A model generated the notes under the pieces. It had not been told where the DNA came from. It did not search any database and was given only the letters and a program-made list of their open reading frames with translations. A DNA stretch of 64,000 nucleotides. It comes from a virus. Position 1 is the stretch's first letter. The number at the start of each line of letters is the position of its first letter. The DNA lies in the IMG/VR virus record IMGVR_UViG_3300049259_000288, positions 1 through 64,000 of that record. One strand, given 5' to 3'. Below, piece by piece: positions 15,187 to 32,000 of the stretch. Made by a program: the position numbers and the translations under genes.

Positions 15187-15262
15187 TGGCTCGGGGAGCA
15201 CGGTTCGAACGTGCATCGTCCTGATCCAAAGTCAGGCGTCTTTCCGCTTAGACCACCCCCGA
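15187..15262 (-). tRNA. tRNA-Gln(TTG)
   Basis: Cloverleaf; loop CT-TTG-GA; encoded CCA. Confidence 0.9.
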
Positions 15263-15277
15263 ACGAAGAACCAGCAA

Positions 15278-15299
15278 GGGGGTCCCTTTCGGGACCCCC
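15278..15299 (-). terminator. GC-rich hairpin, possible terminator or processing signal
   Basis: GGGGGTCCC-GAAA-GGGACCCCC followed by TTGCTGGTTCTT on the minus strand. Confidence 0.5.
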
Positions 15300-15351
15300 A
15301 GGCCGGGATAGAGCACCGCCTCGCGGCGGGGGCTTCGTAGCGCAGGTGATC

Positions 15352-15900
15352 CTACGCGACGGCGCCGGCGACGTTGTCGATGGGGAGGTACGGGGCCCAC
15401 GTCGGGTTGGCCTCGCGGATCCCCATGAGCAACCAGTACGTGCCCGTCGGGACGTAGGGCTTGAACGCGAGAACCCAGTCCATCTCGGCCAGCGTGTGAG
15501 CGGCCTTCCGCGCGTTGCACGGACGGCACGCGGCCACGACGTTGGTCCAGGTGTGCCGGCCACCCCGCGACCGCGGGTGAACATGGTCGACGGTGGTGCC
15601 GCGCCGCGGCGCCCACTGCCGTTCCCCGCGGTGGTTCTCGGGGATGCAGTAGGCGCACCGGTGCTCGTCACGCCGCAGGACCGCGGCGTTCGACAGCGCG
15701 ATGCGCGCGGTGTACGGCACCTGCACGTACTTCCGCAGGCGGATCACCTCGGGCACGGGCACCGAGGCGCGTGCTGAGTGGTAGGCGTCGTCACCGGCCT
15801 CGAGCACCTCGGCCTTCTCGGCCATGACGAGCACGACGGCCCGGCGGGTGTCGATGATCCGAAGCGGGGTGTAGTCAGCATTGATCAGCAGGGCCGCCAT
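15352..15900 (-). CDS. HNH endonuclease
   Basis: LLINADYTPL, RRDEHRCAYC, TVDHVHPRSRGG..W.NVVAAC..CN..K. Confidence 0.9.
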   Translation of the reverse strand: MAALLINADYTPLRIIDTRRAVVLVMAEKAEVLEAGDDAYHSARASVPVPEVIRLRKYVQVPYTARIALSNAAVLRRDEHRCAYCIPENHRGERQWAPRRGTTVDHVHPRSRGGRHTWTNVVAACRPCNARKAAHTLAEMDWVLAFKPYVPTGTYWLLMGIREANPTWAPYLPIDNVAGAVA

Positions 15901-15916
15901 CTGCGTCTCCTTTCCT

Positions 15917-16648
15917 TCATCGTTGGCGCGCCCTTGTTTGCGCATCCAGTCGTTGTTGTCGTTGGACCGGGTCGGCCCAAACCTTCCGCTGTGCCTCGGC
16001 CATGCGCGCGCGGGTCTCCTCGCTCACGACCCGCGCGGTGTTCATCTGCGCGATGGCTTCCCGCTGCGTCTCGGTGCGCTCGTAGCGCCCGACGCCAGGC
16101 GAGGGTCCGTTCCTGGCGTAGGTTGCACGCAGGGACGCAGCGATCTTGGACCGGGTCTCATCTGAGAGCCGTCGCCCGGTGTTCGACCTGGCGATCTTCG
16201 CGATGACTTCGGGCGCTCGTGGGCGGTCTTTGAGCGTCGCGCGTATCTTTTCGCGAACCACCGTGGGCATGGGCCCCTTGGGCTTGCCCCTTTGCCAGGC
16301 TGACATCTTCGCCTTTGTTGACACGGAGTGGTGATGGCCTGTCAGACCTTCGCCGCCATCCGTGTGATTCGTGAGTCGGGCTACAGCGCGGTAGTGCTGG
16401 ATCCAGTGGCGTTCGCGAGCGGCCCAGTCCTCGCGACCGTCTACGACCTCCACGAGCTGGATGATCGGCGGCGAGTTGTCTGCGAGACATCTTCTGATCC
16501 ACCGATCACGATGGGTGGAGGTTCGACCGGATCGCGCAGACCAAAGGTGGTAGGCGAGCCGGTCGCCCAGTGGCTTGACGGTCTTTCCGACGTACCGGAT
16601 TTCGTTGGAACGCTGGTCGATGAGCACATAGATGGACGTGGGTTGCAC
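15917..16648 (-). CDS. GIY-YIG homing endonuclease with NUMOD3-like repeats
   Basis: IYVLID...IRYVGKT, ERHWI, NHTDGGEG, HS..TKAKMS and LSDETRSKIA repeats. Confidence 0.85.
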   Translation of the reverse strand: MQPTSIYVLIDQRSNEIRYVGKTVKPLGDRLAYHLWSARSGRTSTHRDRWIRRCLADNSPPIIQLVEVVDGREDWAARERHWIQHYRAVARLTNHTDGGEGLTGHHHSVSTKAKMSAWQRGKPKGPMPTVVREKIRATLKDRPRAPEVIAKIARSNTGRRLSDETRSKIAASLRATYARNGPSPGVGRYERTETQREAIAQMNTARVVSEETRARMAEAQRKVWADPVQRQQRLDAQTRARQR

Positions 16649-16656
16649 GATCTCCG

Positions 16657-16678
16657 ACAGTAAACGGAGGGTGTGACG
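16657..16678 (-). promoter_or_regulatory. YGTCAC-N10-TANNNT promoter
   Basis: CGTCAC-N10-TACTGT, 8 nt before GTG 16648. Confidence 0.55.
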
Positions 16679-16683
16679 GAAAG

Positions 16684-16755
16684 CTCCGGGACGAGGACTT
16701 GAACCCCGTATTCGAGGTCCAGAACCTCGCGTGTTGCCGATTACACCATCCCGGA
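16684..16755 (-). tRNA. tRNA-Gln(CTG)
   Basis: Loop TT-CTG-GA. Confidence 0.9.
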
Positions 16756-16762
16756 ATGATGG

Positions 16763-16837
16763 TGGTCGGGAACCGGGGAGTCGAACCCCGCGCCTTCTGC
16801 CCCCCAGGCAGACGTGCTACCGCTGCACCAGTTCCCG
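16763..16837 (-). tRNA. tRNA-Pro(GGG)
   Basis: Loop CT-GGG-GG; CCA. Confidence 0.9.
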
Positions 16838-16844
16838 TTGTCGA

Positions 16845-16919
16845 TGGTCAGGGTGACACGAGTCGAACGTGCATCCTCCTGCCCCCAAAGCAGGCGCGCG
16901 GCCTTTGCGCTACACCCTG
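16845..16919 (-). tRNA. tRNA-Pro(TGG)
   Basis: Loop TT-TGG-GG; CCA. Confidence 0.9.
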
Positions 16920-16924
16920 TTGCG

Positions 16925-16999
16925 TCTAGCTGGGGAGATTTGAACTCCCGACCTCCTCGTCCCGAACGAGGCGCGCTGACCAAGCTGCGCTACAGCTAG
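16925..16999 (-). tRNA. tRNA-Pro(CGG)
   Basis: Loop TT-CGG-GA. Confidence 0.9.
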
Positions 17000-17000
17000 T

Positions 17001-17075
17001 TGGCGTCCCCGGCACGACTCGAACGTGCGCGCTGCGATTTAGAAGATCGCGGCTCTGCCGCTGAGCTACGGGGAC
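17001..17075 (-). tRNA. tRNA-Arg(TCT)
   Basis: Loop CT-TCT-AA; CCA. Confidence 0.9.
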
Positions 17076-17080
17076 TCGCG

Positions 17081-17153
17081 AGCCGGTGACAGGAGTCGAA
17101 CCTGCGCGTTCCGCATTACGAGGGCGGTGCTCAGCCACCCGAGCATCACCGGC
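17081..17153 (-). tRNA. tRNA-Thr(CGT)
   Basis: Loop CT-CGT-AA. Confidence 0.85.
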
Positions 17154-17198
17154 GAGAACTACTAAATCGCGAAGAACTAGTAGAGAACTAGTAGTTGG

Positions 17199-17274
17199 TG
17201 GTACCCGCGGCGCGAGTCGAACGCGCAAACACCTGATCTTGAGTCAGGCGGCTCGCCGGATGGCCTACGCGGGC
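17199..17274 (-). tRNA. tRNA-Leu(CAA), short variable loop
   Basis: Loop CT-CAA-GA; CCA. Confidence 0.85.
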
Positions 17275-17279
17275 TTGCG

Positions 17280-17354
17280 TGTCCACGACAGGCGTCGAAC
17301 CTGCACGTTACGACGGTCTGAACGTCGCTCCTCTGCCAGTTGGGATACGTGGAC
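17280..17354 (-). tRNA. tRNA-Leu(CAG), short variable loop
   Basis: Loop TT-CAG-AC. Confidence 0.85.
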
Positions 17355-17355
17355 G

Positions 17356-17432
17356 TGGTACTCGGGATGGGATTTGAACCCACACGCACCACGCTCTCGA
17401 CGTGGCGGCTTTGCCGATTTGCCTACCCGAGC
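17356..17432 (-). tRNA. tRNA-Leu(GAG), short variable loop, C33
   Basis: Loop TC-GAG-AG; CCA. Confidence 0.85.
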
Positions 17433-17439
17433 TTGGTGC

Positions 17440-17513
17440 TGGTGGACCCGACGGGAGTTGAACCCGCAATCGTCTCCTTGCAGGGGAGGTGCTAGCCGTT
17501 CAGCTTCGAGCCC
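17440..17513 (-). tRNA. tRNA-Ala(TGC), C33
   Basis: G3:U70, A73; loop CC-TGC-AA; CCA. Confidence 0.8.
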
Positions 17514-17521
17514 GAGATGGT

Positions 17522-17606
17522 TGGTGCGGCTGCCCACGCTCGTCAGCGCGAAGCATCACGGCAGGGGCTCTCCCGATGCGCTCGGGCGCCTTTCTCAGCC
17601 GCACCA
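17522..17606 (-). ncRNA. structured non-tRNA element in the tRNA array
   Basis: 11-bp terminal stem TGGTGCGGCTG/CAGCCGCACCA enclosing internal hairpins. Confidence 0.45.
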
Positions 17607-17607
17607 G

Positions 17608-17679
17608 TGGAGCCACGGAGAATCGAACTCCGACCTTCGCCATGCCATGGCGGCGTGCTGCCACTATCACTATGGCCCC
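17608..17679 (-). tRNA. tRNA-Ala(GGC)
   Basis: G3:U70; loop AT-GGC-AT. Confidence 0.88.
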
Positions 17680-17689
17680 GTAGAACGTG

Positions 17690-17732
17690 CTCGGCCCGGC
17701 TACGGATCCCTTGGGATTCCGACCGGGCCGAG
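17690..17732. other. strong spacer hairpin
   Basis: CTCGGCCCGG...CCGGGCCGAG. Confidence 0.6.
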
Positions 17733-17748
17733 ACGCTTCTCTCGCAAA

Positions 17749-17827
17749 TGGTGGCAGGGAGAGGATTTGAACCTCCGACCTCCGGGTTATGGGCCCGGCG
17801 AGCACATCCAGGCTGCTCCACCCTGCG
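17749..17827 (-). tRNA. initiator tRNA-fMet(CAT), C33
   Basis: 1:72 mismatch; three G-C pairs in the anticodon stem; loop CC-CAT-AA. Confidence 0.88.
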
Positions 17828-17838
17828 TCGCTCTTGAG

Positions 17839-17867
17839 ACGATACGCCTTGGCGCCGGCGTCGTCCA
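17839..17867 (-). promoter_or_regulatory. internal housekeeping-sigma promoter in the tRNA array
   Basis: TGGACG-N17-TATCGT just upstream of tRNA-fMet. Confidence 0.55.
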
Positions 17868-17872
17868 GTGTT

Positions 17873-17946
17873 TGGTACCGGTGCTCGGAGTCGAACCGAA
17901 GTCCGCGCGGGTATGGGCCGCACGTCGCACGCCTGTCATCACCGGC
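17873..17946 (-). tRNA. tRNA-Met/Ile2(CAT), weak D stem, C33
   Basis: Loop CC-CAT-AC; T-arm and CCA intact; D stem mismatched. Confidence 0.7.
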
Positions 17947-17947
17947 A

Positions 17948-17973
17948 TGAACCTTCTCGTCGATGTCGCCGAT
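17948..17973 (+). promoter_or_regulatory. sigma-28-type late promoter
   Basis: TGAA-N16-GCCGAT, GTG 9 nt downstream. Confidence 0.8.
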
Positions 17974-17982
17974 CGACGGGAT

Positions 17983-18105
17983 GTGAAGCTGAGCTCGCGT
18001 GCGGTCACCAACATCCTGACGATCATCGTGCTGATCGTGGCGCTGCTGCCGCTCGAGGTGTGGCTCCTCGACAACATCTTTCACTTCGGATACAGCGGCG
18101 ACTAG
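17983..18105 (+). CDS. small membrane protein antisense within the tRNA array
   Basis: 40 aa, one hydrophobic helix; fills the only long non-tRNA gap; own promoter. Confidence 0.65.
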   Translation: MKLSSRAVTNILTIIVLIVALLPLEVWLLDNIFHFGYSGD

Positions 18106-18106
18106 A

Positions 18107-18180
18107 TGGGGTGACCGAGCGGAATTGAACCGCCATCACCAGGGCCACAACCTGGCGCTCTACCATTGAGCTACGGCCAC
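18107..18180 (-). tRNA. tRNA-His(GTG)
   Basis: Loop TT-GTG-GC; C73; CCA; T at position -1. Confidence 0.9.
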
Positions 18181-18182
18181 AG

Positions 18183-18255
18183 TAGGCGTGGGGGGAGTCG
18201 AACCCCCGCAACACAGCGTGTGGAGCTGCTGCTCTGGCCACTGAGCTACACGCCC
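18183..18255 (-). tRNA. tRNA-Val(CAC), C33
   Basis: Loop TC-CAC-AC. Confidence 0.87.
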
Positions 18256-18264
18256 GAGAACTGC

Positions 18265-18341
18265 TGGTGCCGGCAGCGGGGATCGAACCCGCGATGCTGT
18301 CCGCTTAAAAGGCGGCTGCCTTGCCACTCGGCCACACCGGC
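18265..18341 (-). tRNA. tRNA-Lys(TTT)
   Basis: Loop CT-TTT-AA; CCA. Confidence 0.85.
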
Positions 18342-18349
18342 ATCGTTTC

Positions 18350-18425
18350 TGGTACGCCATCAGGGAGTCGAACCCCGGACCCTCTCCTCATCAGGGAGAT
18401 GCTCTCACCACTGAGCTAATGGCGC
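18350..18425 (-). tRNA. tRNA-Ile(GAT)
   Basis: Loop CT-GAT-GA (G37); CCA. Confidence 0.88.
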
Positions 18426-18426
18426 T

Positions 18427-18502
18427 TGGTAGTCGCGACTGGATTTGAACCAGCGACCTCCTGCGTGTCGAGCAGGCGCTCTAGCCACTGAGCTACGCGA
18501 CC
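18427..18502 (-). tRNA. tRNA-Val(GAC), C33
   Basis: Loop TC-GAC-AC; CCA. Confidence 0.9.
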
Positions 18503-18503
18503 A

Positions 18504-18580
18504 TGGTGGAACCGACTGGCGTCGAACCAGCACCCTTCCGGGCTTCAACCGGACGCTCTCCCTGCCTGAGCTTCGGTTCC
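18504..18580 (-). tRNA. tRNA-Phe(GAA)
   Basis: Loop TT-GAA-GC; CCA. Confidence 0.9.
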
Positions 18581-18584
18581 ATGA

Positions 18585-18636
18585 GGCGCTTGCCCCAGAG
18601 TCGCACTGGGTGAAACGGGCTCGAAGCCCAAGCGCC
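18585..18636 (-). ncRNA. mini tRNA-like three-way junction
   Basis: GGCGCTT/AAGCGCC stem with two hairpins, one T-arm-like (CCCAG-TGCGACT-CTGGG). Confidence 0.4.
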
Positions 18637-18638
18637 AG

Positions 18639-18712
18639 AGCCGGTGACAGGAATCGAACCCGCGTCCTTCTGCTTACAGGGCAGGTGCTCAACCAACGTG
18701 AGCTACACCGGC
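18639..18712 (-). tRNA. tRNA-Thr(TGT), C33
   Basis: Loop CC-TGT-AA. Confidence 0.85.
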
Positions 18713-18716
18713 GAGA

Positions 18717-18791
18717 TGGAGCGGCTGACGCGAATCGAACGCGCATCACATGCTTGGAAGGCACGAGCTCTAGCCATTGAGCTACAACCGC
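18717..18791 (-). tRNA. tRNA-Gly(TCC)
   Basis: Loop CT-TCC-AA; CCA. Confidence 0.9.
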
Positions 18792-18792
18792 A

Positions 18793-18869
18793 TGGAGTGT
18801 GTGACCGGGTTCGAACCGGCGACCTCGACGTTGGCAACGTCGCGCTCTGACCAACTGAGCTACACACAC
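18793..18869 (-). tRNA. tRNA-Gly(GCC)
   Basis: Loop TT-GCC-AA; CCA. Confidence 0.9.
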
Positions 18870-18873
18870 GCGA

Positions 18874-18949
18874 TGGAGAGCGTGACCGGAATCGAACCGG
18901 TGAATGGACTGGGTTGCAACCAGCCGCCTTCCCACTTGGCTACACGCCC
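18874..18949 (-). tRNA. tRNA-Cys(GCA)
   Basis: Loop TT-GCA-AC; U73; CCA. Confidence 0.9.
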
Positions 18950-18953
18950 ACGG

Positions 18954-19028
18954 CCCCGAGACGAGGACTCGAACCCCGCTCCTTCCGCGTTAACAGCGCG
19001 GCGTCGTCGCCCGGACGACTCTCTCGGG
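18954..19028 (-). tRNA. tRNA-Asn(GTT)
   Basis: Loop CT-GTT-AA; G at position 8. Confidence 0.82.
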
Positions 19029-19029
19029 T

Positions 19030-19105
19030 TGGTAGTCCGTACGAGATTCGAACTCGTGATCTTCTGGTTGAGAACCAGATGTGTTCACCCCTACACCAAC
19101 GGACC
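19030..19105 (-). tRNA. tRNA-Glu(CTC)
   Basis: Loop TT-CTC-AA; CCA. Confidence 0.9.
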
Positions 19106-19206
19106 ATGTGCGCCGTTGACGACGTGCGCCGGCGCTGCGCTTGCCATCGAAGAGCACGGCCCTGTGCGGCCCGGAACCGTGTGGCATCTCGTCGATCGTC
19201 GCCGAG

Positions 19207-19279
19207 CACTCCGTACCGGATTCGAACCGGTGCCGTGACCTTGAAAGGGTCGTGTCCTTGGCCGCTAGACGAACGGAGC
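19207..19279 (-). tRNA. tRNA-Glu(TTC)
   Basis: Loop CT-TTC-AA. Confidence 0.9.
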
Positions 19280-19280
19280 A

Positions 19281-19366
19281 TGGCGGAAGGTGGAGGAATT
19301 GAACCCCTGCGCTTGCACGCACCACTGGCTTCGAACCAGCTCGCCTCACCGTCGGCGGCACCTTCC
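19281..19366 (-). tRNA. tRNA-Ser(CGA)
   Basis: Loop TT-CGA-AG; long variable arm; CCA. Confidence 0.87.
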
Positions 19367-19371
19367 TCGAG

Positions 19372-19459
19372 CGGAGCGAGTGAGATTCGAACTCACGGCG
19401 CATTGCTGCGCGCACGTCTTTCCAGAACGGCCCGTTCAGCCAGACTCCGGCATCGCTCC
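19372..19459 (-). tRNA. tRNA-Ser(GGA)
   Basis: Loop CT-GGA-AA; long variable arm. Confidence 0.87.
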
Positions 19460-19463
19460 GAGA

Positions 19464-19553
19464 TGGCGGATCGTGGAGGGCTCGAACCCCCGCCAGTTCC
19501 TCACTGACGCCCCGCGCTTCAAACGCAGTTCGCCCCCACGGGCGGCACGATCC
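19464..19553 (-). tRNA. tRNA-Ser(TGA)
   Basis: Loop TT-TGA-AG; long variable arm; CCA. Confidence 0.85.
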
Positions 19554-19557
19554 TCGA

Positions 19558-19648
19558 TGGCGGAGACGGTGGGATTTGAACCCACGGCGCATCACTGCGC
19601 GCACGACTTAGCAGGTCGGCCCGATGAACCAGACTCTGGCACGTCTCC
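19558..19648 (-). tRNA. tRNA-Ser(GCT)
   Basis: Loop CT-GCT-AA; long variable arm; CCA. Confidence 0.88.
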
Positions 19649-19652
19649 GAGA

Positions 19653-19728
19653 TGGCGTCCTCGGCGCGACTCGAACGCGCGACCTGCGCGTTAGGAGCGC
19701 GCTGCTCTCGCCACTGAGCTACGAGGAC
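19653..19728 (-). tRNA. tRNA-Arg(CCT)
   Basis: Loop CT-CCT-AA; CCA. Confidence 0.9.
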
Positions 19729-19729
19729 G

Positions 19730-19806
19730 TGGAGCCGAAGTCGGGAATCGAACCCGAGGCCTCACCCGTACCAGGGGTGCGCTCTACCAAACTGAGCTAC
19801 GTCGGC
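19730..19806 (-). tRNA. tRNA-Thr(GGT)
   Basis: Loop CT-GGT-AC; CCA. Confidence 0.9.
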
Positions 19807-19807
19807 G

Positions 19808-19882
19808 TGGCGCCCACGACAGGACTCGAACCTGCAGCCTCGACCTCCGGAGGGTCGCGCTCTCCCATTGAGCTACGTGAGC
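19808..19882 (-). tRNA. tRNA-Arg(CCG)
   Basis: Loop CT-CCG-GA; CCA. Confidence 0.9.
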
Positions 19883-19909
19883 TACGTGCTACGTGAGCAT
19901 CGTGCATTG

Positions 19910-19981
19910 CGTCCCAGAGAGGGGTCGAACCTCCAACCTACGGCTCCGTAGACCGTCGCTCTTCCATTGAGCTACCGGGAC
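19910..19981 (-). tRNA. tRNA-Arg(ACG)
   Basis: Loop CT-ACG-GA. Confidence 0.88.
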
Positions 19982-19985
19982 TCGC

Positions 19986-20079
19986 GGCGGGCGCTCTGCC
20001 ACAGAGCTTCGCCGTCCTCGGATGCTGCGCGCAGCATCGTCATCGAACGGCGGCAGGAATTGAACCTGCGCCTCCCGCC
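19986..20079 (-). ncRNA. circularly permuted tRNA-like RNA (YrlA Y-RNA-like architecture)
   Basis: 5'-stem, T arm (GCAGG-TTCAATT-CCTGC), loop-closed acceptor stem, D arm (GCTC-TGTGGCA-GAGC), stem-3'. Confidence 0.75.
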
Positions 20080-20082
20080 TCG

Positions 20083-20158
20083 CGCGGCTGACGGGATTTG
20101 AACCCGCGATCTCTTCCTTGACAGGGAAGTGAGGACGACCAGACTCCTCCACAGCTGC
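20083..20158 (-). tRNA. tRNA-Asp(GTC)
   Basis: Loop CT-GTC-AA; G73. Confidence 0.88.
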
Positions 20159-20163
20159 TTGGG

Positions 20164-20238
20164 TGCGCGATCAGGGACTCGAACCCTGCCTATGTCGGTT
20201 TAAGAGACCGCTGGTCCAGCCATCTGACCAAATCGCGC
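20164..20238 (-). tRNA. tRNA-Lys(CTT)
   Basis: Loop CT-CTT-AA. Confidence 0.87.
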
Positions 20239-20243
20239 GTGAG

Positions 20244-20384
20244 GTGCGTGGAGTGGGCGCGGCGTGTGTGCCTGTTCTTCGATCGGTTTGGAACCCGGCC
20301 AGGCCCTCTGTCACGAGAGCCCACTTCCGTCGGTGACACGAACCGGGTGCGTTCTCGCACGCCTCCATGTCGATCTCCACGCAC
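20244..20384 (-). ncRNA. 141-nt rod-shaped RNA with central bubble (6S-like candidate)
   Basis: Nested stems GTGCGTGGAG, GGCGTG, ACCCGGTT, TGTCAC with an asymmetric internal loop. Confidence 0.5.
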
Positions 20385-20387
20385 GAG

Positions 20388-20467
20388 TGGGCCCGGAGGG
20401 AATCGAACCCCCTGTGTCATTCGACGTCTGGGTTACAACCAGGTGCGCCCCATGGCGCGTCGGACCC
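20388..20467 (-). tRNA. tRNA-Tyr(GTA)
   Basis: Loop TT-GTA-AC; variable arm; short D loop. Confidence 0.85.
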
Positions 20468-20536
20468 GTGTGGCGAGGGTTGGCGCCCTCGCCCTATCTC
20501 GGCGTCTATGCGATTGTCAACGAGCTGGTACTCAAG

Positions 20537-20608
20537 CAGGGGCGGGAGGGATCGAACCTCCGTTGCCGGTTTTGGAGACCGGAGTCCGTTCCACTGGACC
20601 ACGCCCCC
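20537..20608 (-). tRNA. tRNA-Trp(CCA)
   Basis: Loop CT-CCA-AA; first tRNA of the array. Confidence 0.9.
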
Positions 20609-21526: not shown

Positions 21527-22000
21527 ATGCTGGATGCTGCGTACCTCGACCGTCGCCTCGGCGAGCGGCTCACCTTCCCGACCTTCCTCGCGTCGATCGG
21601 CGAGCCCCTCGAGGGCGACCGACTGCCCGACGGCGAGTGGACCTGGGTGACACTCGGTGGCTACGTGGAGCGGGCCCATGGCGCTATCGCGCCGCCGGCG
21701 GATCAGGTCGGCTTCCACGTCATGGAGTTCGTCACCGAGCTTGGCGATGCGGAGAACGTCGATCGGCTCATCGACCTCGCCGGCCAGCAGATCGACCGCG
21801 CCGTGCTCCTGCGGCTCAGCGCGCTCATCGCCGCGGGCTCGGGCTACCTCGTCGAGAACATGGACGTCATGTACTCGATCGGGGCGCGCGAGACGAAGGT
21901 GTGGGAGGAGCCGATGAACTTCGAGTCGTCGGTCCTGCACTGGATGTGCCGGACCCCGGTGCGCCTGGCGATTGGGATGCCAGCGGGCGTTCCCGCCTGA
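21527..22000 (+). CDS. hypothetical protein
   Basis: Clean ORF with phage codon usage. Confidence 0.65.
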   Translation: MLDAAYLDRRLGERLTFPTFLASIGEPLEGDRLPDGEWTWVTLGGYVERAHGAIAPPADQVGFHVMEFVTELGDAENVDRLIDLAGQQIDRAVLLRLSALIAAGSGYLVENMDVMYSIGARETKVWEEPMNFESSVLHWMCRTPVRLAIGMPAGVPA

Positions 22001-28087: not shown

Positions 28088-30013
28088 GTGAGCGTCGTCC
28101 ATGTCGAGACCGACGAGTTCGGCGACATCGCAGCAGCGGATGCGACCGGTCTGCACCTGAGCCCGGGCGAGGTCCGTCAGGTGTGGTCGCAGATGATGGC
28201 GAACGACCCGCTGGTCGCCGCGCTGACCACCTGGACTCGCAAGGTCCAGCGGCCCCGGCGCCGGGGCGGCCTGCTCGATCGTGACCGCTACGCCACCCCC
28301 GGCACTACCTTCGACCAGATCCGCACGGCGCGCGACGCCATGGACGACGACGTCGTCGAGGGCATCGCCGACCTCACCGAGGCGCTCGCGTTCAAGAAGG
28401 TCGGCTTCTTCTCCCCCGACGAGGACGAGGAGAGCGCCTGGAACCAGTGGGCTGGCACGGTGAACCTCGACGGACTGCTGCGCCAGGCGTGGCGGACCTA
28501 CTTCACCGACTCGCAGGCGGTCGTTGCGTTGTGGTGGGGCCGCACGCAGTACAAGGTCACCGGCAAGACCCGCAAGGGCAACGAGCGCCGAAAGACCTTC
28601 GACCTCGCGGTGCCGACGGCGATCGACACCATCGACTCGCTCAAGGTCACGCCCGTCGGCGACATGCTCTTCGGCCGGGAGCGGCTGGCCTACATCGCCA
28701 CCATCGGAGAGGCCGAGGCGTTCGACGAGATCCTCGGGCGTCGGAACTCGATCATGAAGCGCACGGGCCGGCTGCCCAGCGGGGCGCCGTTCCCGCGGAT
28801 GCTTCCCGTGCGCTGGGACGACGAGGAGACCCTCGACAACGAGGTCGTCGATCGCCTGCTCGTGGGGCGCTACACGCCCGATGGTGACGAGGCGCGCCTG
28901 CTGATGAGCGAGGGGGTCGACCCCCAAAACCTCTTCCTGATGTCGAACGACTCGGTGTTCCGGCACACCGCGACCAAGGGCGGCCACGAGCGGTTCGCCC
29001 GGGTGCGGATGAAGTCCACCTTCGAGCTCCTCGACATGAAGCACCAGCTGCGCCAGAAGGACCGGGTCTTCCTGCTCGCCGGCATCAACTTCATCCTGGT
29101 GATCAAGCAGGGCTCGGACACGCTGCCAGCGCTGCCCGAGGAGATCAGCCACCTGCGCGCCAACACCCAGGTGCTGGCGCAGATGCCGGTCATCGTCGGG
29201 CCCCACACCCTGACCGTCGACGTGGTGACGCCGGACCAGGAGTCGGTGCTGAACCGCGACAAGTGGGATGTGCTTGATGAGCGCATCGCCGCGCGTCTGC
29301 TGCGGCAGTTCGGGCCACGCGGCGGCGGCGCCGGCGACCAGACCGCCGACCTCGCTCAGCTCGCCGGGCTGTGGCTCGAGTCCGAGCGCCACATGCTGAA
29401 CCGGACGCTCGAGGCCAAGATCTTCGACCTCATCCGCAAGCGGAACGAGCAGCTGACCCAGCGCGCCAAGCTCCGGTACTACCCGAAGCGCATCGCACTG
29501 GCCTTCGACTCGGCCTACGCCTCGTTCCTGCTGGACATGCGCGACAAGAACGAGGTCAGCCGCGACACCGTGCACACCGAGTTCGGCCTCGACCAGGGCG
29601 ACGAGGCGGCGATGCGCGAGCGCGAAGAGCGCGACTTCGACGAGATCTTCAAGACCCTGGCGACGCCCGGCGCCGGCATGGCGACCGGAACGCCGGGGGC
29701 TCCAGCCGGTCTCCCGGGCGGAAATCCCGGCGGCGGGGACGGCGGTGCCGGCGGCGGCCGCGCGGCGCAGAAGCAGGCGGGTCGCAATGGTGGTGGCACC
29801 AGCAACGGCGGCGGTGCGGCGCCGGGCAGCGGCCAGGGTCAGGCGCCGCGCCGGCTGCGCAAGCTGTCGGCGAGCTCGACGCGCACGGCGCTGCTCGCCG
29901 CGGCCAAGGAGCTCGAGATCCCCGGGCGCTCTGGCATGAACCGTGAGCAGCTGGCGACGGCGATCCACGCCGAGCTGGGAATCGACGGTCCCGAGGAGGA
30001 CGACGATGAGTGA
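28088..30013 (+). CDS. portal protein with Gly-rich tail and Rho-N-like C-terminal domain
   Basis: Size and first position in the head module; C-terminal LLAAAKELEIPGRSGMNREQLATAI. Confidence 0.7.
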   Translation: MSVVHVETDEFGDIAAADATGLHLSPGEVRQVWSQMMANDPLVAALTTWTRKVQRPRRRGGLLDRDRYATPGTTFDQIRTARDAMDDDVVEGIADLTEALAFKKVGFFSPDEDEESAWNQWAGTVNLDGLLRQAWRTYFTDSQAVVALWWGRTQYKVTGKTRKGNERRKTFDLAVPTAIDTIDSLKVTPVGDMLFGRERLAYIATIGEAEAFDEILGRRNSIMKRTGRLPSGAPFPRMLPVRWDDEETLDNEVVDRLLVGRYTPDGDEARLLMSEGVDPQNLFLMSNDSVFRHTATKGGHERFARVRMKSTFELLDMKHQLRQKDRVFLLAGINFILVIKQGSDTLPALPEEISHLRANTQVLAQMPVIVGPHTLTVDVVTPDQESVLNRDKWDVLDERIAARLLRQFGPRGGGAGDQTADLAQLAGLWLESERHMLNRTLEAKIFDLIRKRNEQLTQRAKLRYYPKRIALAFDSAYASFLLDMRDKNEVSRDTVHTEFGLDQGDEAAMREREERDFDEIFKTLATPGAGMATGTPGAPAGLPGGNPGGGDGGAGGGRAAQKQAGRNGGGTSNGGGAAPGSGQGQAPRRLRKLSASSTRTALLAAAKELEIPGRSGMNREQLATAIHAELGIDGPEEDDDE

Positions 30014-32000
30014 GCTCGAAGCGCCCCTGGTGGTGCAGGCGAACCGCGGGTTCCACGTGCTGTCGCTGGCCGAGGTCATCGACGACACGAAGGAGACGGC
30101 GGCGTCCTGGGCCGGCGAGCACATCCAGCTGCGCCCGGACTTCGGCTGGATCGTGGGCCGCTACGTCGAGGCGGACAAGCCCAACCGCAACGGCCACATC
30201 TTCCCGATGGAGGACCTGCGCGCCTCGCACCAGGGCGTGGTGCACACCTACCTGAACATGCTCCACCGCCAGCACCACGTCGTGGGCACCTTCACCGCGG
30301 CCAAGCTGCTCGAGGGCGTGGAGTCTGCGGTGCCGTTCGCGGCGTCGGAGCAGGCGGCGATGCTCAACCCGCACGTCGAGGCCGTCTCGGCGTTCTGGCG
30401 CTACGCCTTCCCGGACGAGTACCGCGCCACCCAGGCCGCCTTCCGCGATCGCAGCGCGTGGCTGTCGATGGAGGCCGTGCCCCGGCGGATCACCTGCACC
30501 GCCGACAACCTCACCTTCGACTACAAGGGCCCGGCGCACGACAGCTACTGCGAGCACCTCCTCGCCTCGCCGCGTGCGCAGCGTCGGCTGAACCAGCCGC
30601 ACTTCGTCGGCGGCGCCGTCATCATCCCGCCGACGCGCCCGGGTTGGGCCCACGCCGACATCCGCGACGTCGCCGGCGTCATCGAGAAGCACCTGGATGA
30701 GGCGGAGATGGTCTATGAGACGGTGGCCGCCGCCGCGTCGCACCTCGATCCCAAGACCTGGGAAGCGGTGATGGCCAAGGTGCTCGCCCACGCGTTCCCC
30801 CGCGACGCCGTGGCCACGGCGCGCCAGTTCTCCACCGGTGAGCGCGAGAAGCTCGCGAAGAGCGGCGAGGCCATGTCCGACGGCTCCTTCCCGATCAAGA
30901 ACGCCGAGGACCTCAAGAACGCGATCAGCGCCTACGGCCGCGCCAAGAACCGCGCAGCTGCCAAGCGCCACATCATGAAGCGCGCCCGCTCGCTGGGCCT
31001 CGAGAACCTGATCCCCGAGGAGTGGAAGGGCCGGGAGACAGCGGCGACGTCGATGCCGGCGAACGTCCGGGCAGCGTATGACGCCCACCTCGCCGAGGGC
31101 GGCTGGGAGCCCGACCCGCAGGTGAACTACCAGGCGCACCCCTACAAGGGCGGCGTGCTGCACATGGTCGCCGACGGCTGGGGCGAGTGGTTCTTCGCCG
31201 AGGTGCAGGGCCAGGTGGCCTTCGTGGCCCAGAAGATGGCTGACGTCCGCGCCTTCCACGTCGCCGAGGGCATCAACATCGGCAAGCCCCTCGTGAAGCA
31301 GATGGGCTGGGGCGACAAGGCGTGGATCGCCGAGCTCATCACCCAGCTCGAGAAGGCCCAGCCTGACGTGAAGCCCAAGCCAGCGGCTGCTGCGCTTGAG
31401 GACATCTCCGGGCTCATCCTCGAAGCGGCGGCCACCAAGAAGGGCGCCATCGTGGCTCTCGTGCCGCCGCCGGCGATCGCCGAGGACATGGCGAAGCTCG
31501 GCAAGGAGCTCCCCGAGGAGATGCACGTCACCCTCGTTTTCCTGGGCGAGATCGCTGATGGCGGCGGCACGGTGGCCCTCGACGACAAGGACCCGGCGTC
31601 GACCGGTCAGCCGGTGAGCAAGGAGCGCGTGCTCGGCGCCGTCGCTGCCTTCTGCGCCGGCGCGCCGGCGCTGCCCAAGGCCGCCGTGTCGGGACTCGGC
31701 GCCTTCGCGCTCGGCGACGACCGAGCCGTGATCTACGCCTCTCTCGACGTCCCCGGCCTGCCCGAGACCCGTGAGCGCCTGGTGGCGTCGCTCAAGGCCG
31801 CCGGCGTGCCGGTGAGCACGCTGCACGGGTTCAGCCCGCACATGAGCCTCGAGTACACGACCGCGGCCGACGCCGCGCCGCGCGTCGACGCCTTCGACGG
31901 CGACCTGCCGGAGTGGGTCGTCGATCACCTCGAGGTGTGGTGGGACGGCGAGCACATCAGCTATGAGCTGGCCGGCGGCAAGGTGGCGTTGCCGGCGTGA
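30006..32000 (+). CDS. capsid maturation protease fused to a C-terminal 2H phosphoesterase
   Basis: PNRNGHIF..LNMLH..VVG and LSME protease motifs; MHVTLVFLG and FSPHMSL 2H motifs. Confidence 0.75.
   Translation: MSELEAPLVVQANRGFHVLSLAEVIDDTKETAASWAGEHIQLRPDFGWIVGRYVEADKPNRNGHIFPMEDLRASHQGVVHTYLNMLHRQHHVVGTFTAAKLLEGVESAVPFAASEQAAMLNPHVEAVSAFWRYAFPDEYRATQAAFRDRSAWLSMEAVPRRITCTADNLTFDYKGPAHDSYCEHLLASPRAQRRLNQPHFVGGAVIIPPTRPGWAHADIRDVAGVIEKHLDEAEMVYETVAAAASHLDPKTWEAVMAKVLAHAFPRDAVATARQFSTGEREKLAKSGEAMSDGSFPIKNAEDLKNAISAYGRAKNRAAAKRHIMKRARSLGLENLIPEEWKGRETAATSMPANVRAAYDAHLAEGGWEPDPQVNYQAHPYKGGVLHMVADGWGEWFFAEVQGQVAFVAQKMADVRAFHVAEGINIGKPLVKQMGWGDKAWIAELITQLEKAQPDVKPKPAAAALEDISGLILEAAATKKGAIVALVPPPAIAEDMAKLGKELPEEMHVTLVFLGEIADGGGTVALDDKDPASTGQPVSKERVLGAVAAFCAGAPALPKAAVSGLGAFALGDDRAVIYASLDVPGLPETRERLVASLKAAGVPVSTLHGFSPHMSLEYTTAADAAPRVDAFDGDLPEWVVDHLEVWWDGEHISYELAGGKVALPA

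What the first reader, a model, noticed from the sequence alone, without database searches (positions are those of the whole stretch)
19986..20079. Circularly permuted tRNA-like RNA embedded in the tRNA array (YrlA-like, but with no Ro-binding stem)
Seen (minus strand): GGCGGG | AGGC | GCAGG-TTCAATT-CCTGC | CGCCGTT | 29-nt insert containing hairpin GATGCTG-CGCG-CAGCATC | GACGGCG | AA | GCTC-TGTGGCA-GAGC | G | CCCGCC. This is a tRNA opened at the anticodon loop and closed at the acceptor end, with order T arm, acceptor, D arm. Established: bacterial YrlA Y RNAs have this T-acceptor-D order and normally extend into a Ro60-binding stem; permuted tRNA genes are known in algae and archaea. Here only about 3-4 nt separate it from tRNA-Asp and tRNA-Arg, so no long Ro stem fits, and no Ro60 gene is visible in the window. 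Inference: an anticodon-less tRNA mimic or decoy released by processing of its neighbours.
Basis: partly seen in the sequence, partly recalled or inferred. Interest (0 to 1): 0.85.

Follow-up and report, generated by a model that had tools for sequence, protein, structure and literature searches.

The report
Back-to-front sealed tRNA look-alike in phage
An uncultured soil phage carries, between two ordinary tRNA genes, a 94-base gene for an RNA with every tRNA part in rotated order, a sealed amino-acid end and no anticodon loop; it resembles the tRNA-shaped head of bacterial Y RNAs without their protein-docking stem, and its job is untested.

Summary
The fold has dG -51.1 kcal/mol and z -3.4. 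Nearly all nucleotides behind tRNA tertiary contacts are present. Rotated back in silico, ARAGORN calls it a tRNA with any loop (20 of 20).

It sits 3 nt after tRNA-Asp and 4 nt before tRNA-Arg, in a 39-tRNA operon of an orphan, probably actinobacterial, soil phage.

- no Rfam hit;
- no Ro60-binding motif or handle;
- no Ro60, RtcB, RNA ligase or CCA enzyme in the 77 kb held (record 73% complete).

My best reading (0.52) is a non-decoding tRNA mimic released by its neighbours' processing. Function and expression are untested.

I could retrieve no homologue. Contigs from two or three other samples cover it, but I could not see their variant letters, so there is no covariation test.

This scan has noted similar handle-less mimics in other phages; those notes are leads, not evidence. 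Verdict: new variant of a known kind.

The parts
20074..20079 (-). Closing stem, 5' strand GGCGGG (equivalent to anticodon-stem positions 38-43)
   Evidence: Pairs perfectly with CCCGCC at 19986-19991 in the MFE fold; sequence.
20070..20073 (-). Variable loop AGGC (A44 G45 G46 C48)
   Evidence: Direct reading. C48 can make the Levitt pair with G15. G45 and G46 fit the tRNA-Phe-type base triples.
20053..20069 (-). T arm GCAGG-UUCAAUU-CCUGC
   Evidence: 5-bp stem and 7-nt loop in the MFE fold. U54, U55, C56, A58 and the G53:C61 pair are all present.
20046..20052 (-). Acceptor stem, 3' strand CGCCGUU (positions 66-72)
   Evidence: Seven pairs with GACGGCG, including G1.U72.
20017..20045 (-). 29-nt insert sealing the acceptor end: C73, GAUGAC, hairpin GAUGCUG-CGCG-CAGCAUC (20038-20021), CGA, G-1
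   Evidence: MFE fold. C73 pairs with G-1, extending the acceptor helix to 8 bp. The 7-bp hairpin stacks beyond a small internal loop.
20010..20016 (-). Acceptor stem, 5' strand GACGGCG (positions 1-7)
20008..20009 (-). A8 A9 linker
   Evidence: Direct reading. A8 replaces the usual U8, and U14 replaces the usual A14.
19993..20007 (-). D arm GCUC-UGUGGCA-GAGC (G15, G18, G19 and A21 present)
   Evidence: The D stem is identical to that of many tRNAs and to the YrlA consensus.
19992..19992 (-). G26, opposite A44
   Evidence: Direct reading.
19986..19991 (-). Closing stem, 3' strand CCCGCC (equivalent to anticodon-stem positions 27-32)
20080..20082 (-). Upstream spacer CGA, between the tRNA-Asp discriminator (20083) and the element
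19982..19985 (-). Downstream spacer GCGA, the leader of tRNA-Arg(ACG); the same 4-nt leader precedes tRNA-Arg(TCT)
20083..20158 (-). tRNA-Asp(GTC), upstream neighbour; no CCA encoded
19909..19981 (-). tRNA-Arg(ACG), downstream neighbour

Best explanation
The element is a gene for a non-decoding tRNA mimic: a tRNA body written in rotated order. It is probably descended from a tRNA related to this phage's own tRNA-Val(GAC).

Proposed mechanism (inferred unless marked):
1. It is transcribed as part of the minus-strand polycistronic tRNA operon.
2. RNase P cuts at G1 of tRNA-Arg(ACG) and makes its 3' end. 3' maturation of tRNA-Asp makes its 5' end.
3. The released ~94-100-nt RNA folds into a tRNA L-shape with an intact D/T-loop elbow. 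The fold is shown by prediction only.
4. Its acceptor helix is sealed and lengthened by a hairpin, so there is no CCA end to charge. The arm that should carry the anticodon stops as a 6-bp stem formed by the RNA's two ends, so there is nothing to decode.
5. It therefore most likely works by being bound as a tRNA. It would occupy or recruit a protein that recognises the tRNA elbow or body, such as a host tRNA-targeting factor, a tRNA-processing or modifying enzyme, or a phage protein.

This is how the tRNA-like head of YrlA Y RNAs is thought to work. Here that head stands alone, without the Ro60-binding handle.
For: Structure:
- The fold is recovered unaided and is more stable than every shuffle.
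- All 29 predicted stem pairs are standard: 28 Watson-Crick plus G1.U72.
- These tRNA tertiary-contact nucleotides are present by direct reading: G15:C48, G18, G19, U54, U55, C56, A58, G53:C61, G26/A44, A9 with U12:A23, G45 with G10:C25, and G46 with C13:G22.
- The rotated version is a tRNA for ARAGORN whatever loop is inserted.

Context:
- The spacers are 3 and 4 nt, which is typical of this array. GCGA is a recurrent leader.
- No promoter-like site was found in the scanned region and no terminator-like site lies inside the array.

Comparison with YrlA:
- The module order is that of the Rfam YrlA model and of the Bxz1 YrlA next to the Ro gene. That RNA has a 6-bp acceptor stem with an 18-nt insert.
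- Published work shows the YrlA head folds like tRNA and is handled by tRNA enzymes (PMC4201824; 10.1101/312249).

Against a fresh break of an existing array tRNA:
- The closest array tRNA, Val(GAC), matches only 82% of body positions.
- Relative to it, five base pairs (2-71, 3-70, 4-69, 29-41, 51-63) differ on both sides and none is broken.

Persistence:
- Contigs from other soil and groundwater samples cover the element. One has 3 differences and 1 gap in 289 nt. One is ~94% identical over 329 nt.
- In another contig of the ~94% sample, the neighbouring 26-nt duplication scar has lost 21 nt.
Against: - There is no expression evidence.
- I retrieved no homologous sequence, so there is no covariation test on the element itself.
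- Compensated differences from a paralogue could predate the rearrangement, so they do not prove selection on the permuted form.
- The array does contain a true rearrangement scar 80 nt away, so rearrangements happen here.
- No partner protein is identified.
- The Rfam YrlA model gives no hit at E <= 10.
- A8/U14 departs from the tRNA norm.
Confidence: 0.52

Rival explanations
1. It is an evolutionary scar with no function of its own. A tRNA gene was duplicated in tandem and the outer halves were lost, or replaced by neighbouring tRNA units. What remains is the 3' half of copy 1, the old spacer, and the 5' half of copy 2. It is transcribed only because it lies in the operon.
For: - This array has undergone slippage and duplication. 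A 16-nt tandem duplication of the 5' end of tRNA-Arg(CCG) lies at 19872-19903 and is largely deleted in a relative.
- GIY-YIG and HNH homing nucleases lie in the array.
- GCGA also precedes tRNA-Arg(TCT), which suggests the Arg unit moved with its leader.
- I found no homologue, no partner and no RNA evidence.
Against: - It needs at least three events, with breakpoints landing exactly at the two ends of one helix.
- No parental copy is present. The best match covers 82% of body positions.
- All 29 stem pairs and the tertiary-contact nucleotides are intact.
- It is retained at apparently unchanged length in a ~94%-identical relative in which a real scar nearby was deleted.
Confidence: 0.2
2. 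It is a precursor that is opened at the acceptor end, as shown for Mycobacterium smegmatis YrlA. RNase P cuts in the insert at or one base before G1. The hairpin trailer is trimmed and CCA is added. The product is a two-piece tRNA body with a free, possibly chargeable, acceptor end and no anticodon.
For: - The acceptor stem is 7 bp. That length was proposed to be why RNase P cuts M. smegmatis YrlA and CCA is then added in vivo, while 6-bp YrlAs stay sealed (PMC4201824; 10.1101/312249).
- The T arm and elbow that RNase P recognises are canonical.
- The likely host phylum is Actinomycetota.
- C73 pairs with G-1, as it does in bacterial tRNA-His.
Against: - The leader and trailer are largely base-paired into a stable hairpin that continues the helix. 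That should hinder RNase P and 3' trimming.
- No CCA-adding enzyme is encoded in the phage record, although the host has one.
- There is no experimental data.
Confidence: 0.12
3. It is a genuine circularly permuted tRNA gene. The ends left by RNase P and by 3' processing of tRNA-Asp are ligated, which creates an anticodon loop from the two spacers. The acceptor end is then opened to give a decoding tRNA.
For: - Joining GCGA and CGA gives a 7-nt loop, GCGACGA, on the 6-bp stem. ARAGORN calls the product tRNA-Val(GAC).
- The closest array tRNA is Val(GAC). It shares G1.U72 and itself has C33 before GAC.
Against: - No Rnl1, Rnl2 or RtcB ligase is found in the record.
- RNase P and RNase Z ends (3'-OH, 5'-P) are not RtcB substrates (established enzymology).
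- There is no bulge-helix-bulge at the termini.
- The loop lacks U33, and the discriminator is C, not the A of this phage's Val tRNAs.
- GCGA is a recurrent leader, so the match may be coincidence.
- A normal Val(GAC) is already present.
Confidence: 0.05
4. It is an ordinary Ro60-bound Y RNA. Its Ro60 gene lies in the missing ~27% of the phage genome or in the host.
For: - The record is only ~73% complete.
- Actinophages such as Bxz1 and Archie carry Ro-like or RNA-binding protein genes with Y-RNA-like tRNA mimics.
- Bxz1 also has a permuted tRNA-like RNA in its tRNA array, 34 kb from its Ro gene.
Against: - Those RNAs all carry a long terminal handle. This element has only 6 bp and abuts tRNAs on both sides.
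- The only GNCGAA(N)G match lies inside the acceptor/D junction, not near the 5' end. There is no YACAGC handle motif inside the tRNA genes or spacers on the array strand.
Confidence: 0.06

Closest known systems
YrlA (Y RNA-like A) of bacteria and actinobacteriophages, Rfam RF02553 (Chen et al. 2014, PMC4201824; Wang et al. 2018, 10.1101/312249)
   Same: - The order of modules is the same: closing stem, variable region, T arm, loop-closed acceptor-like stem, two linker bases, D arm, closing stem. I checked this against the Rfam consensus and the Bxz1 YrlA.
- tRNA tertiary-contact nucleotides are kept.
- The D stem GCUC/GAGC is identical to the YrlA consensus.
- The acceptor stem is 7 bp, as in the RNase P-cleaved M. 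smegmatis YrlA.
   Different: - There is no long terminal stem, no GNCGAA(N0-1)G motif near the 5' end, and no Ro60 gene within 4 kb or anywhere in 77 kb.
- The Rfam model gives no hit at E <= 10.
- The ends are defined by neighbouring tRNAs.
- The insert in the acceptor loop is 29 nt with its own 7-bp hairpin, against ~3 nt in the model and 18 nt in Bxz1.
- It has A8 A9 where YrlA has UA.
Circularly permuted tRNA genes of Cyanidioschyzon merolae, other algae and Thermofilum pendens (from my own knowledge; discussed in 10.1101/312249)
   Same: The 3' half lies upstream of the 5' half. The acceptor ends are joined by an intervening sequence. The RNA's termini pair as the anticodon stem.
   Different: Those are eukaryotic or archaeal. 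They rely on a bulge-helix-bulge, a splicing endonuclease and a ligase, and they yield decoding tRNAs. Here there is no such motif, no ligase and no canonical anticodon loop.
Small stable tRNA-like RNAs in phage tRNA clusters: T4 species 1 and 2 RNAs and T5 tRNA-like RNAs (from my own knowledge; not tested here)
   Same: They are non-decoding structured RNAs, co-transcribed and co-processed with phage tRNAs, with unknown function.
   Different: I did not compare them here. As far as I know they are not permuted tRNA bodies.
Permuted (two-piece) tmRNA, Rfam RF04321
   Same: The gene order is rotated, with the T arm and 3' acceptor strand ahead of the 5' acceptor strand.
   Different: There is no tag reading frame, no pseudoknots and no G3.U70. 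ARAGORN and Rfam find no tmRNA here. The element is 94 nt.

Membership tests
YrlA (RF02553) | tRNA-like domain in the order T arm, loop-closed acceptor-like stem, D arm, on a stem formed by flanking strands | tested here: met
   The MFE fold compared with the Rfam consensus line and the Bxz1 YrlA alignment.
YrlA (RF02553) | Nucleotides for tRNA tertiary interactions conserved (elbow G18/G19 with U55/C56, U54:A58, 15:48) | tested here: met
   Direct reading. The exception is position 8:14, which is A:U instead of U:A.
YrlA (RF02553) | Score at or above the Rfam gathering threshold (69 bits) | tested here: not met
   No YrlA hit at the element even at E <= 10; the hits in the array are tRNA-tRNA junctions. 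The bona fide Bxz1 YrlA also reaches only 32.5 bits, so this test is strict.
YrlA (RF02553) | GNCGAA(N0-1)G Ro60-contact motif near the 5' end, with a long terminal stem | tested here: not met
   The only match on this strand near the element is GGCGAAG at 20013, spanning the acceptor/A8A9/D-stem junction. The flanks are tRNAs.
YrlA (RF02553) | Encoded within about 4 kb of a Ro60/TROVE gene on the same strand | tested here: not met
   No TROVE match in the 76,960-bp record; the control genomes rang. The record is ~73% complete.
Circularly permuted tRNA gene | 3' half upstream of 5' half of one and the same tRNA, with complementary acceptor and anticodon-stem strands | tested here: met
Circularly permuted tRNA gene | Termini processed and ligated (bulge-helix-bulge motif, endonuclease, ligase) to form a circular intermediate | tested here: not met
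   The termini form a plain 6-bp stem with 3- and 4-nt tails. No RtcB, Rnl1 or Rnl2 in the record; the Rnl1 control rang nowhere, so that negative is weak.
Circularly permuted tRNA gene | The joined product has a canonical anticodon loop and decodes | tested here: inconclusive
   The joined spacers give the loop GCGACGA, which ARAGORN calls Val(GAC). It has C33 and a 6-bp stem. Some of this phage's tRNAs also have C33.
Canonical tRNA (RF00005) | Cloverleaf in normal order with an anticodon loop | tested here: not met
   Not called by ARAGORN or Rfam at the locus.
Permuted tmRNA (RF04321) | Tag reading frame, pseudoknots, alanine identity pair | tested here: not met
   No tmRNA by ARAGORN. No RF04321 hit at the element. 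Positions 3-70 are C-G.

The most novel reading that the evidence does not exclude
The element is a working split or permuted tRNA of a bacterial virus. There are two routes. [quoted passage not shown] (b) The termini left by the neighbours' processing are ligated, so that the spacers GCGA and CGA become the anticodon loop of a Val(GAC)-type tRNA, matching the body's closest paralogue. Either route would be the first permuted tRNA maturation pathway in the bacterial or phage world.
Probability: 0.08. Interest if true: 0.9.

Novelty: new variant of a known kind. Interest (0 to 1): 0.5.

Why it matters
The tRNA-shaped head of bacterial Y RNAs has a solved structure but no known binding partner. 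A head that stands alone, without the Ro60 handle and released simply by tRNA processing, implies that the head has a job of its own. It also gives a minimal object for pull-downs and RNase P/CCA assays.

If such mimics soak up or recruit tRNA-binding host factors, they would add a third role to phage tRNA arrays, beside codon supply and replacement of cleaved tRNAs.

This instance is a weak experimental handle. The phage is uncultured, has no retrievable relatives, and the RNA is not shown to exist.

Tried and rejected
Searches for homologues of the element all failed:
- Exact and gapped DNA patterns in IMG/VR and in JGI metagenomes.
- GTDB genomes. One search gave one false hit, a tRNA-Sec followed by a hairpin. 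One search showed that the 22-mer spanning T arm and acceptor occurs mainly in tRNA-Met(CAU) genes of unrelated bacteria, so there is no host attB-like match.
- blastn against 50,697 phage records found only short T-arm matches; megablast found nothing.
- A single-sequence covariance model (R1) run on two terminase relatives, four actinobacterial genomes and 151 Actinomycetota genomes. All hits were tRNA-tRNA junctions.

Searches for relatives of the phage:
- The neighbouring protein at 21527-22000 has no homologue among 5.8 billion proteins.
- Terminase relatives at 43-56% identity are fragments without tRNAs.
- None were found in GTDB genomes.
- Using the spurious 87-aa ORF across the element as bait found nothing.

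Sequencing runs: no RNA holder is listed. Laying contigs of four DNA runs showed coverage by relatives, but the low-depth variant letters inside the element were not printed.

Rejected ideas:
- attP-like tRNA fragment: no tyrosine or serine recombinase in the record.
- tmRNA.
- Shared handle motif with other phage Y-like RNAs: no YACAGC inside the tRNA genes or spacers on the array strand.
- The 8-nt match between the insert and the nearby 26-nt spacer: that spacer is a diverged tandem copy of the tRNA-Arg(CCG) 5' end.
- A search of mycobacteriophage Archie's tRNA array for a handle-less head found none.

Full report
**What is there.** The window is the first 64 kb of a 76,960-bp IMG/VR virus record. 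The record is about 73% complete and has 68% G+C. The minus strand of 15187-20608 carries a tRNA operon:
- 37 tRNAs by ARAGORN;
- one more found by Rfam only, at 17443-17513;
- a further CAU tRNA-like gene at about 17873-17952, seen only with relaxed ARAGORN settings.

The finding lies in a 100-nt gap between tRNA-Asp(GTC), whose discriminator is at 20083, and tRNA-Arg(ACG), whose G1 is at 19981.

Read 5' to 3' on the minus strand, the 94 nt are:
- GGCGGG;
- AGGC;
- GCAGG-UUCAAUU-CCUGC;
- CGCCGUU;
- a 29-nt insert holding GAUGCUG-CGCG-CAGCAUC;
- GACGGCG;
- AA;
- GCUC-UGUGGCA-GAGC;
- G;
- CCCGCC.

RNAfold returns these helices as the minimum-free-energy and centroid structure. The energy is -51.1 kcal/mol, against -39.1 (sd 3.6) for shuffles, so z is -3.4 and 0 of 200 shuffles fold as well. 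RNAfold also adds a C73:G-1 pair, which lengthens the acceptor helix to 8 bp.

In tRNA numbering the element keeps the following (direct reading):
- G10-C25, C11-G24, U12-A23 and C13-G22;
- G15 with C48;
- G18 and G19 with U55 and C56;
- U54 with A58;
- G53-C61;
- G26 opposite A44;
- A9, G45 and G46 placed as in the tRNA-Phe base triples.

The one departure is A8/U14 in place of U8/A14. Other tRNAs of this array also have A8.

When I rotated the two halves back to normal order in a script, ARAGORN called the product a tRNA, both with the real spacers and with 20 of 20 random loops. A covariance model of the permuted fold (R1) finds the element at 122.9 bits. Nothing else in the record scores above 22.7 bits, and the better secondary hits are junctions of adjacent tRNAs. 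This is one tRNA body in rotated order, not a chance juxtaposition.

**Context.**
- Spacers in the array are mostly 1 nt after an encoded CCA, or 4 nt (UCUC, UCGA, GCAA, GCGA).
- The 4-nt GCGA before tRNA-Arg(ACG) also precedes tRNA-Arg(TCT).
- No sigma-70-like promoter was found in the scanned region, and no terminator-like site lies inside the array. Co-transcription and release by the neighbours' processing is therefore the simplest expectation. It is an inference.
- GIY-YIG and HNH nuclease genes separate the last tRNA-Gln from the rest of the array.
- The phage is an orphan. Its nearest catalogued terminase is 41% identical, and a gene next to the array has no homologue in 5.8 billion proteins.
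- A conserved DUF5131 protein of the phage has its best matches almost wholly in Actinomycetota. An actinobacterial host is therefore likely, though this is a weak inference.

**What it is like.** The Rfam YrlA consensus reads: 4-bp stem, 4 nt, T arm, 6-bp stem closed by about 3 nt, UA, D arm, closing strand. As a control I took mycobacteriophage Bxz1. The RNA in the gap just upstream of its Ro-like gene gp220 has this order, with an 18-nt insert in the acceptor loop. The present element has the same order.

Published work supports the comparison:
- The YrlA head folds like tRNA and is a substrate of TruB and DusA.
- The M. smegmatis YrlA, whose acceptor stem has 7 bp, is cut by RNase P and receives CCA in vivo (PMC4201824; 10.1101/312249).

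**Why it is not a YrlA member.**
- The Rfam model gives no hit at the element at E <= 10. It does hit tRNA junctions in the same array. The test is strict, because the Bxz1 YrlA itself reaches only 32.5 of the 69 bits required.
- The Ro60-contact motif GNCGAA(N)G is absent from the 5' end. Its one occurrence is an accident of the acceptor/A8A9/D junction.
- There is no space for a handle, because tRNAs abut both ends.
- No TROVE gene exists in the 77 kb.
- Other actinophage Y-like RNAs that I looked at all carry long handles. One is a second permuted tRNA-like RNA in the Bxz1 tRNA array gap between tRNA-Met and tRNA-Cys. Another lies downstream of the 'RNA-binding protein' gp55 of phage Archie and has a GGACUCC-UACAGCAA handle. 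The YACAGC motif is absent from the tRNA genes and spacers on the tRNA-coding strand here.

**Origin.** The closest array tRNA is Val(GAC), identical at 82% of the 66 body positions. Other array tRNAs reach 74-77%. Both the element and Val(GAC) have G1.U72. They differ on both sides at pairs 2-71, 3-70, 4-69, 29-41 and 51-63, and no pair is broken. So the element is not a fresh break of an existing array gene. These compensations could predate the rotation, however, so they do not prove selection on the permuted form.

The 22-mer covering the T arm and acceptor occurs mainly in tRNA-Met(CAU) genes of unrelated bacteria, so ancestry is not firmly fixed.

**An unresolved coincidence.** Joining the two spacers (GCGA + CGA) gives a 7-nt loop, GCGACGA, on the 6-bp stem. 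Positions 33-36 of that loop, CGAC, equal the C33 plus anticodon of the phage's own Val(GAC). GCGA is a recurrent leader, the discriminator is C rather than A, and no ligase is encoded. I therefore rate a true permuted tRNA gene at about 5%.

**Conservation.** I could not retrieve any homologous sequence; the searches are listed under tried and rejected. Laying contigs of four DNA runs from other soil and groundwater studies showed three things:
- A 289-nt contig covers 19938-20225 with 3 differences and 1 gap. One of the differences is at 19984, in the spacer.
- A 380-nt contig covers 19834-20162 with 20 differences and 17 gap letters.
- Another contig of the same run lacks 21 nt of the 26-nt duplication scar at 19883-19908.

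So the element persists in a ~94%-identical relative in which nearby junk was lost. The substituted positions inside the element were not printed, so this is weak support only.

**RNA-repair genes.** The record has no RtcB, Rnl1, Rnl2, CCA-adding enzyme or integrase. The Rnl1 control rang nowhere, so that negative is weak. The only RNA-end enzyme-like domain is a 2H (2'-5' RNA ligase superfamily) domain at the C-terminus of the protein encoded at 29943-31997. It would not join 3'-OH and 5'-P ends.

**Verdict.** The structure is real and well formed. The best-supported reading (about 0.5) is a non-decoding, sealed tRNA mimic. It is made as part of the tRNA operon, freed by RNase P and 3' processing of its neighbours, and acts through its tRNA shape: the YrlA head without the Ro60 handle.

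The rivals are:
- a neutral rearrangement scar (0.2);
- an RNase P/CCA-opened two-piece form, as in M. smegmatis (0.12);
- a Ro60-bound Y RNA whose protein gene lies off-contig (0.06);
- a true permuted tRNA gene (0.05).

I found no paper describing handle-less permuted tRNA mimics in phages. Earlier notes of this scan report at least eight such elements in other soil phages and actinophages. I did not verify those notes, and they are not independent evidence. They do suggest that this is one more instance of a recurring, undescribed variant rather than a singular oddity.

Noticed in passing
window 29943-31997 (+): A 685-aa protein in the head-gene region has a C-terminal 2H phosphoesterase / 2'-5' RNA ligase superfamily domain (PF13563, 34.4 bits, residues 526-669). 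A first-stage note on this genome had flagged the same thing.
   Followed up: partly
window ~17873-17952 (-): A tRNA-like gene missed by default ARAGORN and by Rfam. It has the anticodon loop CCCAUAC (CAU with C33), G1.U72, an odd D arm and an encoded CCA. ARAGORN calls it tRNA-Met only at relaxed settings.
   Followed up: partly
window 17443-17513 (-): A tRNA found by Rfam (46.2 bits) but not by default ARAGORN. Its loop CCUGCAA reads as Ala(UGC) with C33, or as Cys(GCA) by relaxed ARAGORN.
   Followed up: partly
window 20239-20386, 17514-17606, 18581-18637, 17680-17748 (-): Other long spacers of the array are structured RNAs. Three are closed by terminal stems: 148 nt with a 10-bp closing stem, 93 nt with an 11-bp closing stem, and 57 nt with a 7-bp closing stem and two hairpins. 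The fourth is a 69-nt hairpin with z -5.5. Several begin U-S-G-K-G-C and end C-N-C-A-Y, so they may share a clamp.
   Followed up: no
window 19872-19903 (-): A 16-nt tandem duplication of the 5' end of tRNA-Arg(CCG) forms the 26-nt spacer. In a related phage from another sample, 21 nt of it are missing.
   Followed up: partly
window 15187-20608 (-): CCA is encoded in about two thirds of the tRNA genes. The 4-nt leaders recur (UCUC, UCGA, GCAA, GCGA). Val(GAC) and several other tRNAs have C33 instead of U33. The tRNA-His gene has no encoded G-1.
   Followed up: partly
window 15352-16648 (-): HNH (15352-15945) and GIY-YIG/NUMOD3 (15917-16648) homing-nuclease genes separate tRNA-Gln(TTG) from the rest of the array.
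   Followed up: no
L007 1220-1343 (AY129337 95735-95858, +): Mycobacteriophage Bxz1 has an unannotated permuted tRNA-like RNA in the gap between tRNA-Met and tRNA-Cys, 34 kb from its Ro gene. It has a T arm, an 8-bp sealed acceptor stem and a D arm, mounted on a long terminal stem. The fold has dG -52 kcal/mol and z -3.9.
   Followed up: partly
L072 1440-1620 (NC_028878 ~42290-42470, +): Mycobacteriophage Archie has a Y-RNA-like permuted tRNA head flanked by GGACUCC...GGAGUCC with UACAGCAA motifs. It lies just downstream of 'RNA-binding protein' gp55.
   Followed up: no
L003 578-1312 (record 64477-65214, +): An ATP-grasp R2K-clade protein (PF14243, E 4e-7) lies among early genes. Nearby are DUF4326, Clp_N, DUF5131, DUF1643, a D12 methyltransferase and a Mu Gam-like protein.
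   Followed up: no
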